From NCBI GenBank assembly GCA_951406725.2, contig OX597819.1:62744001-62808000 (forward strand): a stretch of 64,000 nt of DNA. The letters run 5' to 3'. The stretch is from Octopus vulgaris. Taxonomy: Eukaryota. Positions 745 through 61,986 of the stretch are shown one piece after another. Made by a program: the position numbers and the translations under genes. Under the pieces are notes generated by a model that searched no databases, had not been told where the DNA came from, and saw only the letters and a list, made by a program, of their open reading frames with translations. Numbering within the stretch: the first letter of the stretch is position 1; every line of letters begins with the position of its first letter.

Positions 745-891
745 AATTATTTACATTATTTACATTTGACAGATGCTTCTCCTCATCTTGTTTGTTGTTA
801 ACACAACGTTTCGGCTGATATACCCTCCAGCTTTCATCAGGTGTCTTGGGGAAATTTCAAACCTGGGTTCTCATTCCTAAGGTATTTTTCG
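745..891 (-). mobile_element. Inverted arm of hammerhead-bearing repeat (Penelope pLTR-like fragment)
   Basis: Reverse complement of 1064-1210; contains an HHR-like core on the minus strand. Confidence 0.7.
800..845 (-). ncRNA. Minimal type-I hammerhead ribozyme-like motif (family H1)
   Basis: Minus strand reads GACAC-CTGATGAA-AGCTG-GAGGGTATAT-CAGCC-GAAA-CG-TT-GTGTT: helix I GACAC/GTGTT, helix II, and palindromic AACGTT in place of helix III. Confidence 0.65.
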
Positions 892-956
892 CGTAGTGTT
901 TAAGAGCGTGGGCTGCTAACCCCAAGATTCCGAGTTCGATTCCAAGCAGTGACCTC
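891..956 (+). mobile_element. tRNA-derived SINE head (tRNA-Ser(GCT)-like loop CTGCTAA) followed by (AAT)n
   Basis: A-box-like TAGTGTTTAAG and B-box GAGTTCGATTCC; related copies at about 16664-16724 and 18541-18579. Confidence 0.65.
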
Positions 957-1060
957 AATAAAAATAATAATAACAATAATAATAATAATAATAATAATAA
1001 TAATAATAATAATAATAATAATAATAATAATAATAATAATGATAATAATAATAATGATAA
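957..1060 (+). repeat. (AAT)n microsatellite linker
   Basis: Direct reading. Confidence 0.95.
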
Positions 1061-1063
1061 CAT

Positions 1064-1245
1064 CGAAAAATACCTTAGGAATGAGAACCCAGTTACGAAA
1101 TTTTCCCAAAAGACCTGAAGAAGGCTGGAGGGTATATCAGCCGAAACGTTGTGTTAAGAACAAACAAGATGAGGACAAGTATCCGTCAAATGTAAATAAT
1201 GTAAATAATTTACATACTTCCTCATCTTTTAAATATCGAACGGCC
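1064..1245 (+). mobile_element. Hammerhead-bearing repeat tail (H1 family; HHR at about 1110-1155)
   Basis: CTGAAGAA-GGCTG-loop-CAGCC-GAAA-CG-TT-GTGTT; homologous to 17316-17497. Confidence 0.7.
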
Positions 1246-2624
1246 TTAATAATATTGCAAACCTAGTAGAAATAATATTTTAGATATTTCTAATTCATTT
1301 TGTCTAAGAAAAAAAAATTCCAACGATGTTTCTAAATATGGTAAGGAAGCACTGAGTTGAAGGCCTATTCAGGAACAATCGAGTAATTATTAACATCGCA
1401 CACTTTGAGATAGAAAGAGAATTTGTAATTTGCTTCAATTTACTATGTAATTTAAAAGTATACACATGTGTGGCAAACGTTATTTTGGAATATTTACTTA
1501 ACATTTCCCCTCGAATAAAAGCTCTAAAAAAAATTCTGACTTCATAGAAAACTCATTAAATTCAAATTGTCAGAATTGCAAACTTATTTCTCCAATCCAA
1601 TGGTTCCAACTTGAAACTGTACCAATTCCAGCAATTCCCTGCATGAAAGTAATTATAAACCAAAGAATTAGTTTAAGGTCCTTGTATTGATAGTTATTTA
1701 ACTTCATAATATTATGTCAACAAATTATTATTTAATCTCAAATTTAATCAACATACCTCTAGCATTCATAACTACAACACAAAGGCAAGTATCCTTTGAA
1801 GGTAAATGATATTATACGCATGTAATCTTCATACAAGATTCTATTAAGCCTTTGTGTAAGTGTGATGATAAGAATGAATCAAAAAGCTCTACACAGAACA
1901 GCCGTACAGGTGGAGAAAAGGATGAAACAAAAGATGAAAGAGGAAATAATGATGGAAAAGTGCGTGACGCACAGAAAGGCAAGAAAGTGCCTTAGGTATT
2001 TTAAGATAGGAAAACAAGAGGAATGACAGGACGAGAGAAGGCAACTCTGAAAAGAGGAAATAATTAAGATATCTAATATCATAGCAGATAAAAATATTCA
2101 GACCACTGGGTTTCAATGAATACATTCACATCCGCGCACACACATGCACACACGTATACACACACACACATGCAAAATGAAAGAAAAGTTTTGAAACGAA
2201 CATCGCTCATGCGGCATATCAATAGTTAACGTTATATTCATAAAGTATTGTAATAAGCGTAACTGTTCTAACTCTCTGAGACATAAAGGACGATTATAAT
2301 GTTGTCAGTTTGATACGAACGAACGAGCAGGGTTCGACAAAAACACACGTCAAATAATTGTTTCTAATTCAGGTACAGGGACAGAAATTTGCAGAGAGTA
2401 GGTTAGACTATTATATCAGACCTCGATCTTCGCTGCTACTTGACTCAGGAAAGATGAAAGCAAATTTAGCTTTAGTGACATTTGAACTCAGAACGTAAAT
2501 CCCAAAGAAAGGTTGCAAGGCATTTCCCCCATTTTAATACTTTGCATGTACTACGTCATCGCGCTGTTATTTTCTTTACTTGTATTTTTTCTTCGTTTTT
2601 TTTTTGCATTATATATATATATAT

Positions 2625-3040
2625 ATTTCTTTACTGCCCAAAAGGGGCTAAACATAGATGGGACAAACAAGGACAGACAAAGGGATTAAGTCGATTACAT
2701 CGACCCCAGTGCGAAACTGATACTTTATTTATCAACCCCGAAAGGATGAAAGGCAAAGTCAACCTCGGCGGAATTTGAACTCAGAACATAAAGACGGACG
2801 AAATACCTATTTCTTTACTACCCACAGGGGGCCAAACACAGAGGAGACAAACAAGAACAGACAGACGGATTAAGTCGATTATATCGACCCCAGTGCGTAA
2901 CTGGTAATTATTTAATCGACCCCGAAAGGATGAAAGGCAAAGTCGACCTCGGCGGAATTTGAACTCAGAACGTAACGACAGACGAAATACGGCTACGCAT
3001 TTCGCCCGGCGTGCTAACGTTTCTGCCAGCTCGCCGCCTT
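2625..3040 (-). mobile_element. tRNA-derived SINE family A with partial tandem duplication (2625-2807 / 2808-3040)
   Basis: Minus strand GGCGGCGAGCTGGCAGAAACGTTAGC...GTTCTGAGTTCAAATTCCGCCGAGGTCGACTTTGCCTTTCATCCTTTCGGGGTCGAT; many copies in the window. Confidence 0.85.
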
Positions 3041-60200: not shown

Positions 60201-60504
60201 TATATATATATATATATATATATATATATATATATGTATATATATATAAAGTCAAGTGTGACCTCCGCGGCTTTTGAACTTAGAACCTTAACTGAATGTC
60301 ATAAGGCACTTTGTCAGATGCGTTAACGATCCTGCCAAACTACTATCATCGAAAAATGGCAAACTTACAAAATTGCCTCGAAAGGTAAGCGCCGGCCGAA
60401 GAGGAAGAAAGCTCAAAGTAAAGGATAGTGGTGATGTGGTTGTGATTCTTGAATGAAATATCGGTCTTAAATTTTGGCACAAGGTCATTATTTTCCGGCT
60501 AGGG

Positions 60505-60660
60505 GCTAAGTCGATTACGCTGGCCTTAGTGATCAACTGGTACATTATCGACAATGAAAGGCAAAGTCGACGTTGGCGGAATTTTAACTCAACGTAAGGA
60601 CGGACGAAACTCTGTTAAGCATTTTGCCTATCGTGTTAACGTTTATGGCAATTCATCGTT
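60505..60660 (-). mobile_element. SINE family A (degenerate)
   Basis: ATGAAAGGCAAAGTCGAC..GGCGGAATTT..AACTCAACGTAAGGACGGACGAAA. Confidence 0.65.
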
Positions 60661-60942
60661 TTATTGTTGACTGAAATATTGATATTGGTGCTCTTAGACA
60701 TTTACTGCAGATGAAAATGGCAGTGCAAGTAGTAGTAGTAGTAGTGGTGACAGCAGTGGAAGTTCCATCGCGTTTAATGAGACGTGAAATACACGTGTAA
60801 AGAGGGGAGTATTTCGTAGACACGCATACTCATAACGTATTTATCAGGTCAAATCAGCGTGACTTCATGTGGCATGTGGAGAAAGACTTTAAGTTACTAC
60901 TAAAATCCGCACACACGCGCATATATATATATATGTACTTAC

Positions 60943-61875
60943 GTGTCCTGTACTTACGTATATTTATTTATATATGCATGTATATATACATGTAACTGTA
61001 GGTACGTACATATATGTTTGTATGTATGCATACATTTTTATTTATTACATTATTACATTATTGTCTGACAGCGCCTCGCGTCAGGTTCGTTTCGATTTGT
61101 CGGTTCGTTCCACTTCTTGTCTCCATTTAATTTTTATATAAATATTTAAGACGCGAAATTCTCTCCCTTTGCTGTACCCTCTCCACTCTCTCTCCCTCTC
61201 ACTCTTCCTCTTTTCTCTCTCTTAGCCGCGTGTCCCCCTCCTCCTTCCTTCTTTCTCACTGCCAGCCTAAAAATTTCTTTCTTTTGCACGCTGCCTCTGC
61301 TACTGAAAAGTCATGCTTTCCACACGCTGCCACACAACATCTTTCGTCTAGCCGAAAAAAGGCCCTTTCGTTTGTTTGTTTTTTCTCATTTGTTCTCTTG
61401 TTTGTTTGATTTCCCGTATTGTATTTTCTTTTTGTTTCTCGTCTTGTATTTTTTTGTACATGTATTTTTATCTTGTATTTTATTGTGCAGTTTTATTGTT
61501 ACATCCTGTTTGTGTTCTTATCCGTTTTACCCCGCTGCTTGGAATTTTATTTTATTTCTCTCGTAGGAAAGCCTAGTTGACAATGTGTCCTGTCTTGCCT
61601 TCGAAACACGCCTGAGTTAACGAGTGACAGCTGATGACGGTGGATTTTCCCTGTGTAGCATGTCCTGTACTTGTTTTCTTGTAAAAAGTTTTGTTTTTCC
61701 TGTTTCTACGTCTTGTTGTGGTGTCCTGTACTTACGTATATTTATTTATATATACATGTAGATGTAGGTACGTACATATATGTTTGTATGTATGCATATA
61801 TTTTTATTTATTATATTATTATTATTTATTATTTTATTTTTATTTATTACTTATATTTTTATTTATTACATTATA
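60943..61875 (+). mobile_element. ~0.9-kb non-coding element with terminal direct repeats (partial-tandem, pLTR-like)
   Basis: GTGTCCTGTACTTACGTATATTTATTTATATAT...GTAGGTACGTACATATATGTTTGTATGTATGCATA at about 60943-61060 and 61721-61870. Confidence 0.55.
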
Positions 61876-61950
61876 TATATATATAGGTAAAAAATAGATC
61901 GCTAGCCACTACACATTCTTCATGTTCTCTCCTTGTTTCTTTCTGTGATC

Positions 61951-61986
61951 CTTTCTGTGGAAGAGCGTAGGCTCGAAACGTTAAAG
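61951..61986 (+). ncRNA. Hammerhead-like motif (family H4)
   Basis: CTTT-CTGTGGAA-GAGC-GTAG-GCTC-GAAA-CG-TT-AAAG. Confidence 0.5.

What the first reader, a model, noticed from the sequence alone, without database searches (positions are those of the whole stretch)
800..61986. At least ten minimal hammerhead ribozyme-like motifs from about five families in 64 kb
Seen: motifs at 800-845(-), 1110-1155, 17363-17408, 29122-29167(-), 29176-29211, 29848-29895(-), 37894-37933(-), 43119-43158, 47876-47911 and 61951-61986. Each has helix I, a CUGANGA-like core, helix II, GAAA, a tiny loop and a UH. Helix sequences differ completely between families while pairing is kept. Most replace helix III by a palindrome (ACGT or CCGG), and several have variant cores (UUGAAAA, CUGUUGAA, extra A). 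Known: minimal type-I HHRs with palindromic helix III occur in Penelope pLTRs and are thought to cleave as dimers. Inference: this genome carries a very dense and diverse HHR load, including non-canonical cores.
Basis: partly seen in the sequence, partly recalled or inferred. Interest (0 to 1): 0.7.

Follow-up and report, generated by a model that had tools for sequence, protein, structure and literature searches.

The report
Penelope retrotransposon hammerheads, one A6U family
The ten motifs are real and are the small hammerhead RNA motifs at the tail ends of five families of Penelope-type jumping genes, which is a known kind; one family of over 15,000 copies has a normally fixed core letter changed (A to U), and whether it still cuts RNA is untested.

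Summary
All ten motifs are present at the stated coordinates and fall into five repeat families. Each family was traced to the 3' end of a protein-coding Penelope-like element (one Poseidon-type, one Hydra-type, three Neptune-type). The ten motifs are seven insertions. Three pairs are back-to-back arms on opposite strands, so they cannot form a cis dimer. Only five of ten pass a strict fold test; most others are mutated copies of intact family motifs. Minimal hammerheads, palindromic helix III, the extra A, U3-A8, opposite-strand pairs and many families per genome are all published (PMC4209133). A 600-kb genome sample gives about 18-30 intact motifs per Mb; the window is roughly 2.6 times denser, not significantly. 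I did not find two things in print. Family E (15,487 exact 30-mer copies) has U at core position 6 (only 158 have A), while N7 and H17 vary freely. Family A's short copies mostly start at an internal tRNA-like segment. Cleavage was not shown. The scan had already noted the density and the tRNA segment in this genome, and A6U in another genome.

The parts
745..891 (-). Family A inverted, 5'-truncated arm (lacks the last ~36 nt of the other arm); holds motif 800-845 with a 10.1-11.1 mismatch
800..845 (-). Hammerhead motif A1: CUGAUGA + extra A, palindrome ACGU, helix II first pair broken
892..954 (+). tRNA-like segment (A-box and B-box-like, judged by eye; not called by ARAGORN or Rfam) that lies in the 3' UTR of the family A element
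957..1060 (+). (AAT)n tract internal to the family A element
1061..1241 (+). Family A sense arm (3' end of a Poseidon-type element) with motif 1110-1155 (helix I broken) and the terminal tail
16667..16724 (+). tRNA-like segment of a second family A copy, separated from its 3' part by an inserted non-LTR fragment (about 16725-17215)
17314..17494 (+). Family A 3' end with motif 17363-17408 (first helix I pair broken)
29006..29177 (-). Family B inverted arm with long tail; motif 29122-29167, core CCGACGA (U4C), helix III ACUC-U-GAGU; 3' end of a Hydra-type element
29176..29241 (+). Family B short sense arm; motif 29176-29211, helix I cut to 3 bp; ends in (CATA)n
29803..30060 (-). Family C 3' end (Neptune-type); motif 29848-29895 is a decayed copy of a UUGAUAA (U3-A8), ACCGGU family motif; ends in (TA)n
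37716..40322 (-). Family D inverted arm, 2.6 kb, with ~36-nt tail at 37716-37752; motif 37894-37933
40323..43297 (+). Family D sense arm: 5'-truncated Neptune-type element; RT (40549-42069, Pfam RVT_1 E 1.3e-7), thumb (42051-42461), Cys linker + GIY-YIG (42437-42982, Pfam GIY-YIG E 0.0047, below cut-off), 3' UTR, ending in (TA)n; reading frame broken at homopolymer runs
43119..43158 (+). Hammerhead motif D: UUGAAAA (U3-A8), 7-bp helix I, 2-bp helix II, ACCGGU; predicted cut after 43151
47848..47995 (+). Family E 3' end; motif 47876-47911, core CUGUUGA + A (A6U); predicted cut after 47907
61898..62086 (+). Family E 3' end; motif 61951-61986, core CUGUGGA + A (A6U); predicted cut after 61982; ends in (TA)n-type repeat

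Best explanation
The ten motifs are minimal type-I hammerhead motifs at the 3' ends of five Penelope-like retrotransposon families, left as seven truncated or two-armed insertions, and they likely cut RNA only weakly and only with a partner copy or the element's protein. Shown here: the link of each family to an RT/GIY-YIG reading frame; the two-armed, one-tailed insertion shape; the microsatellite ends; the copy numbers; the core variants. From established work: reverse transcription starts near the 3' end, so most copies are short 3' ends that contain the motif; helix III forms only by pairing of two palindromes; the anole Poseidon motif cut only with protein present and was not needed for insertion in vitro (PMC11167929). 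Inferred: selection acts on the motif in the few master elements, while dispersed copies decay neutrally. Back-to-back arms cannot supply each other's helix III, because one transcript carries one sense and one antisense copy, which would pair into a long hairpin. Because cutting is slow and may be dispensable, master lineages tolerate core changes: U3-A8 (C, D), U4C (B) and A6U (E). I put the chance that the A6U motif still cuts measurably as a dimer or with protein at about 0.55.
For: Family to ORF links: A, RT and GIY-YIG upstream of the same 3' end (21 of 30 RT-anchored loci carry the tRNA-like segment in sense downstream and most also the hammerhead tail); B, 8 of 15 endonuclease-anchored loci have the B motif downstream, protein has CxCX5C, CxxC, CxH and no CCHH; C, L352; D, in the window; E, L351 plus L249/250, L259, L260, L266, L272, L273. 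D: 12 of 12 insertions are two-armed, tail at one end in 10 and both ends in 2; at least 20 copies identical over 251 nt. Family E: in 81 copies only N7 (all four bases) and H17 (A 36, U 44, G 1) are polymorphic among 36 positions; U6 in 77 of 81 and in 21 of 23 copies found incidentally; 158 of 15,487 exact copies have A6. Two-sided changes between related families: helix I C-G to G-C (E vs F); helix II C-G to U-A (D vs L211). Positions 3 and 8 read C-G in A, B, E, F and U-A in C, D.
Against: No cleavage was shown. RNA-seq run X24 laid 2,123 reads on the E motif with no place where many molecules begin or end; the library looks unstranded and most reads are under 95% alike, so this is a weak test. 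No two-sided change was seen among copies within family E. The formal count rests on one pair in 8 sequences (18 of 500 shuffles reach the score, related rows). Loop II and several flanking blocks of E are as invariant as the core, so the constraint need not be catalytic. Minimum-energy folds of several monomers and homodimers are not the hammerhead fold. The ACGU self-duplex is only -2.5 kcal/mol at 25 C.
Confidence: 0.87

Rival explanations
1. The variant-core motifs (above all family E, A6U) no longer cut. The fold is kept because the element's protein binds it or because it marks where reverse transcription starts.
For: A6C lowers the Mg2+ rate strongly (PMC3088659 and PMC7151607 passages). 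Hammerhead mutants did not affect insertion by the anole element in vitro (PMC11167929). Loop II of E is invariant too. No read-end pile-up.
Against: N7 takes all four bases and H17 avoids G (80 of 81 copies), the pattern expected of a working core. G5, G8, G12, A13, A14 and the palindrome are kept across N7 subfamilies that differ in the flanks. U6 occurs in ORF-linked copies of at least two N7 lineages.
Confidence: 0.35
2. The short copies are non-autonomous elements in their own right (retrozymes or SINEs) rather than truncated ends. For family A, RNA polymerase III would start at the internal tRNA-like segment and give a ~300-nt RNA that the Penelope protein copies.
For: 23 of 30 loci picked by the tRNA-like segment lose homology to the full element within 10 nt upstream of the probe; 7 run 20-510 nt further towards or into the ORF. 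The segment is upstream of 23 of 30 family A tails and absent from 120 loci of the other families. 574 exact copies of a 30-mer.
Against: The same segment sits in the 3' UTR of the coding element. The 5' ends cluster at a short palindrome that could itself stall or fold back reverse transcription. ARAGORN and Rfam do not call a tRNA. Lack of T4 runs is not specific: 37 of 39 ORF windows lack them too. B, C, D and E show graded 5' truncation into coding elements.
Confidence: 0.4
3. The motifs are chance matches in AT-rich, repeat-rich DNA, and the 2.6-kb inverted repeat is an assembly artefact.
For: The descriptor was relaxed after seeing the families. With looser cores shuffles give 1-2 hits per 64 kb on average, up to 7. 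The two D arms differ only by 5 homopolymer indels.
Against: 18 hits against 0-2 in sequence not used for tuning. Each motif belongs to a family with hundreds to thousands of candidate copies. 11 of 11 other D loci are two-armed with different break points.
Confidence: 0.01

Closest known systems
Minimal type-I hammerheads of metazoan Penelope-like elements (Cervera and de la Pena 2014, PMC4209133; main text parts 1-2 of 4 and supplement PDF parts 1-2 of 3 read)
   Same: 3-7 bp helix I, extra nucleotide after A9, palindromic 15.2-16.2, U3-A8 covariant, opposite-strand pairs 100-700 bp apart, several unrelated families per genome, most copies single and truncated.
   Different: All 56 cores in their Fig. 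S3 text have A6; family E has U6 and family B mostly C4. Their counts were about 2,000-9,000 per genome; here the extrapolation is about 51,000-84,000 strict motifs, with a different descriptor.
Poseidon of the green anole, PAc (Frangieh et al. 2024, PMC11167929; abstract and whole main-text section read)
   Same: RT + C-terminal GIY-YIG, hammerhead in the pLTR, 30-40-nt tail from two reverse-transcription start sites, AT-rich targets, no RNA-seq reads ending at the cut site.
   Different: Canonical core, and the ORF starts inside the motif. Here the motifs lie 140 to about 1,700 nt behind the stop codon, and family A has a tRNA-like segment in between.
Neptune, Penelope/Poseidon and Hydra clades (Craig et al. 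2021, PMC8557442; passages and the Hydra section read)
   Same: CX2-5CxxC linker in C, D, E; no such linker in A; CxCX5C, CxxC, CxH and no CCHH in B; inverted 5'-truncated arms, one-sided tail, (TA)n targets.
   Different: Clade calls here rest on motifs only, no tree was built. Core variants are not discussed in the passages read.
Natural hammerhead core variants: A6C of phage Bcep176, U4C of viroids, U10.1-U11.1 (Perreault 2011, PMC3088659; Naghdi 2020, PMC7151607; passages read)
   Same: A change at position 6 or 4 with the rest of the core kept; U-U at 10.1-11.1 as in family C.
   Different: Those are rare single sequences, and C not U at position 6. Here U6 is fixed in a family of more than 15,000 copies with several N7 sublineages.
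Metazoan non-LTR retrozymes and Schistosoma hammerhead SINE-like repeats (PMC7229834 and PMC6765202 passages; bioRxiv 10.64898/2026.07.22.740005 part 1 of 5)
   Same: Non-coding, hammerhead-bearing repeats thought to depend on Penelope proteins; promoter plus hammerhead layout resembles short family A.
   Different: Retrozymes are head-to-tail arrays. None of the window's motifs is in such an array, and all five families have a coding parent.

Membership tests
Minimal type-I hammerhead of Penelope-like elements | Helix I, core C3-A9, helix II, GAAA, UH in type-I order | tested here: met
   5 of 10 window copies pass the strict descriptor; family majorities of A-E fit
Minimal type-I hammerhead of Penelope-like elements | Self-complementary stub in place of helix III | tested here: met
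   ACGU (A, E), ACCGGU (C, D), ACUC-N-GAGU (B)
Minimal type-I hammerhead of Penelope-like elements | Consensus core CUGANGA or its U3-A8 covariant | tested here: met
   Families A, C, D
Minimal type-I hammerhead of Penelope-like elements | A at position 6 and U at position 4 (families E and B) | tested here: not met
   E: U6 in 77 of 81 copies, A6 in 158 of 15,487. B: C4 in 61 of 82. These two are filed as variants, not consensus members.
Minimal type-I hammerhead of Penelope-like elements | Location in the pLTR / 3' end of a Penelope-like element | tested here: met
   All five families
Minimal type-I hammerhead of Penelope-like elements | Compensatory changes in the helices | tested here: inconclusive
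   Seen between related families and at 3-8; none among copies within family E; too few independent lineages for statistics
Minimal type-I hammerhead of Penelope-like elements | Site-specific self-cleavage after H17 (as dimer or with protein) | not testable with these tools
   Only an indirect look: no read-end pile-up in one RNA-seq run
Penelope-like element (EN+) | Single ORF with RT and C-terminal GIY-YIG | tested here: met
   Window 40549-42982 (GIY-YIG hit below Pfam cut-off, motif visible); broken frames in other families
Penelope-like element (EN+) | Inverted or tandem partial copies with a 30-40-nt one-sided tail | tested here: met
   D 12 of 12 two-armed, tail one-sided in 10; A inverted arm upstream in 14 of 30
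Penelope-like element (EN+) | Clade placement by RT phylogeny | not tested
   Clades assigned from linker motifs only
Non-LTR retrozyme | Head-to-tail array of short non-coding units, each with a hammerhead | tested here: not met
   No window motif lies in such an array
tRNA-derived SINE (short family A copies) | Defined 5' end at a tRNA-like A/B-box segment | tested here: met
   23 of 30 loci
tRNA-derived SINE (short family A copies) | Recognisable tRNA homology | tested here: inconclusive
   No ARAGORN call at default, no Rfam tRNA hit; relaxed ARAGORN is noisy; A/B boxes judged by eye from recalled consensus
tRNA-derived SINE (short family A copies) | Transcription by RNA polymerase III | not testable with these tools
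   No data
Rfam hammerhead families | Score at or above gathering threshold | tested here: not met
   0 matches in the window; no hammerhead model at E up to 10 on 61900-62080

The most novel reading that the evidence does not exclude
Family E is a working natural hammerhead with U at the 'invariant' position 6, kept through several successful retrotransposon lineages and more than 15,000 copies, where the element's protein or a non-Mg ion rescues the core. Together with U4C and U3-A8 families in the same genome, it would give a natural allelic series to test whether Penelope elements are selected for slow, protein-gated cutting.
Probability: 0.35. Interest if true: 0.62.

Novelty: new variant of a known kind. 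Interest (0 to 1): 0.4.

Why it matters
What the hammerhead does for Penelope-like elements is an open question: it is nearly universal in them, yet slow in vitro and not needed for insertion in the one reconstituted system. This genome holds a canonical family, two U3-A8 families, a U4C family and a very large A6U family, plus a young family (D) whose protein could be tested. Either result informs the question. If A6U cuts, the core consensus and the search descriptors that miss it are too narrow. If it does not cut, a highly successful family has kept the fold without the chemistry. The rest of the finding is known biology.

Tried and rejected
Rfam at E up to 10 returned only microsatellite-driven microRNA hits among the 150 rows shown of 425; none at gathering. 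The repeat finder was swamped by microsatellites except for the 2.6-kb inverted repeat. First idea that family A is a free-standing SINE: rejected when the same module was found in the 3' UTR of a coding element. Idea that family B has a fixed 5' end or a second hammerhead upstream: rejected, homology runs on to a Hydra-type ORF and the upstream look-alike lacks the core in most copies. Absence of T4 runs as support for Pol III: not specific. Relaxed ARAGORN: noise. Energy folding does not single out the hammerhead fold. One search used a structure string set two columns off; one search is the corrected count. Sequencing runs: no indexed holder is on record as RNA, which is no evidence either way. 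A read-end test for family D was not obtained. The second p-value printed used a wrong count and is not used. Lunse, Weinberg and Breaker 2017 (PMC5785218), the paper most likely to list Penelope hammerhead variants, is not held; I know it only from recall and from the review PMC6765202.
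Full report
Setting. The window is AT-rich animal DNA dense in microsatellites, at G000:C6:62744001-62808000 of a 2.8-Gb genome. Its repeats look to me like octopus repeats; that is recall and no call of mine tested it.

Observation. That descriptor was set after seeing the families, so the fair test is a sample of 60 evenly spaced 10-kb stretches: 18 hits, against 0-2 in 8 shuffles and 0 in reversed sequence. 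Seven of the 18 are one tandem array. The five window motifs that fail carry single breaks or a truncation, and the fetched family copies are mostly intact at those places.

Density. The sample gives 30 strict motifs per Mb, or 18 without the array, which extrapolates to about 51,000-84,000 per genome; the window has 78 per Mb (binomial p 0.064). Counting broken copies of the window's own five families gives 10 in 64 kb against 23 in 600 kb, but that comparison favours the window because the families were chosen there, and the ten motifs are seven insertions. So the load is high genome-wide and the window is at most moderately above average.

What carries the motifs. Family D is a Penelope-like element in the window: RT (Pfam RVT_1), a CX4CxxC linker and GIY-YIG (weak Pfam hit), then a 3' end with the motif 137 nt after the stop and a (TA)n junction. 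The 2.6-kb inverted copy to its left differs only by five homopolymer indels. This is the family's normal shape: 11 of 11 other loci fetched are two-armed, and a ~36-nt tail sits at one end in 10 of 12 insertions and at both ends in 2. At least 20 copies are identical over 251 nt, so the family is young. Family C links to a related RT/GIY-YIG frame in L352, and family E to one in L351 and six further insertions. Family B links to a protein with CxCX5C, CxxC and CxH motifs and no CCHH, the Hydra pattern; 8 of 15 endonuclease-anchored loci carry the B motif downstream within the 1.5-kb flank. Family A links to an element with no Cys linker, the Penelope/Poseidon pattern. Clades are from motifs; no tree was built.

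How it likely works. Established: Penelope-like elements copy their RNA from two start sites near the 3' end, which explains the tail, and leave mostly 5'-truncated, often inverted copies (PMC11167929 main text; PMC8557442 passages). Their minimal hammerheads need a second copy to form helix III and cut slowly (PMC4209133). The anole motif cut only with protein and was not needed for insertion in vitro. Inferred: the dispersed copies here are by-products. The three pairs (800/1110, 29122/29176, 37894/43119) point away from each other on opposite strands, so one transcript cannot hold two sense motifs, and read-through RNA would pair arm with arm. Selection would act only on master copies, in tandem or with protein.

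Core variants. U3-A8 (C, D), the extra base after A9 (A, E), palindromes and opposite-strand pairs are all in PMC4209133. U4C (B: 61 of 82 copies) and U10.1-U11.1 (C) are known from other hammerheads (PMC3088659 passages). Family E is different. The exact 30-mer with positions 6 and 7 free has 15,487 copies and the reversed control 0; only 158 have A6, spread over all four N7 states. Of the first 100 listed, 96 have U6, and among these N7 is U 41, A 25, C 19, G 11 (my count). In 81 copies taken with up to 5 substitutions from the fetched loci (20 copies from the loci fetched for A6 were left out), only N7 and H17 are polymorphic; 21 of 23 incidental copies have U6. Reads and contigs from four public runs show the same variation at N7 and H17, and no row for position 6 among the 40 rows shown of 97. 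Those are the two positions a hammerhead leaves free, which argues for a kept fold. Against catalysis as the reason: loop II and some flanks are just as constant, and A6C is known to slow cutting in Mg2+ while sparing it in Mn2+ (PMC7151607 passages).

None among copies within family E, as expected for decaying copies of few masters. Between related families there is one two-sided change in helix I (E vs F) and one in helix II (D vs L211, found by protein homology), and 3-8 switches between C-G and U-A. This fits the model but is too thin for statistics.

Family A extra. Its 3' UTR holds a tRNA-like segment and (AAT)n ahead of the hammerhead. Of 30 loci picked by that segment, 23 begin within 10 nt of the probe and 7 run 20-510 nt further upstream. 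A Pol III start would explain this, and so would a stall at the palindrome there; tRNA finders do not confirm the segment.

Expression. One RNA-seq run laid 2,123 reads on the E region with no pile-up of ends. The library is ill-suited and may be from a related species, so this neither shows nor excludes cutting.

Novelty. Not found in print: A6U (searches, listings only, 25 of 56 shown; all 56 cores in the Fig. S3 text of PMC4209133 have A6) and a tRNA-like start inside a Penelope 3' end (listings only). Lunse et al. 2017 and its supplement could not be read and may bear on the first claim; the bioRxiv supplement is closed. Within this scan, earlier notes already report the density and the tRNA segment in this genome and A6U in another genome; I reached these readings before looking. 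Verdict: real, mostly known, one variant worth a bench test. Interest 0.4.

Noticed in passing
L181:2200-7000 (G000:C1:20000001-20010000): 359-nt tandem array, seven strict hammerheads with canonical core and ACCGGU on two opposite-strand arms; retrozyme-like.
   Followed up: no
L213, L226, L233, L350: A sixth family (F) related to E in helix II, with A6 but C4, and a G-C for C-G swap in helix I.
   Followed up: partly
L188, L206, L239: Family B subfamily differing at unpaired places: GCAA for GGAA loop, A for U at the palindrome centre, some with U4 and an A-A at 10.1-11.1.
   Followed up: partly
window 16725-17215, 18678-19500, 20156-21829, 52222-53441: Fragments of non-LTR elements with RT, CCHC and restriction-like endonuclease motifs, three of them next to (AAT)n; they resemble R4/Dong elements (recalled). 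One interrupts a family A copy.
   Followed up: partly
window 18539-18575: A third, partial tRNA-like segment followed by (AAT)n with no hammerhead tail behind it.
   Followed up: no
window 10342-11206 (-): Tc1/mariner-type transposase remnant (Pfam HTH_Tnp_Tc3_2, E 3e-13).
   Followed up: no
window 2624-3041, 62180-62411 and partial copies at 15904, 34250-34598, 55251-55603, 60501-60663: A common ~230-nt dispersed repeat, one copy with a 184-nt tandem duplication.
   Followed up: no
window 61560-61735 and 62465-62675: Repeat-like stretches flanking the second E copy; the first holds GAAAC before CTGATGA (reversed strand order of hammerhead boxes). Earlier scan notes describe rewired hammerheads in Naiad elements of this genome; not tested here.
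   Followed up: no
window 5008-5300 and 6120-6845: Degenerate 26-nt tandem arrays with higher-order 113- and 198-nt periods.
   Followed up: no
window 35651-35734: Near-perfect 35-bp inverted repeat, picked up by microRNA models.
   Followed up: no
L259/L260 (G000:C1:2510701 and 2512252): Two family E motifs on the same strand 1.55 kb apart with endonuclease fragments before each: a natural partial tandem suited to a dimer test.
   Followed up: partly
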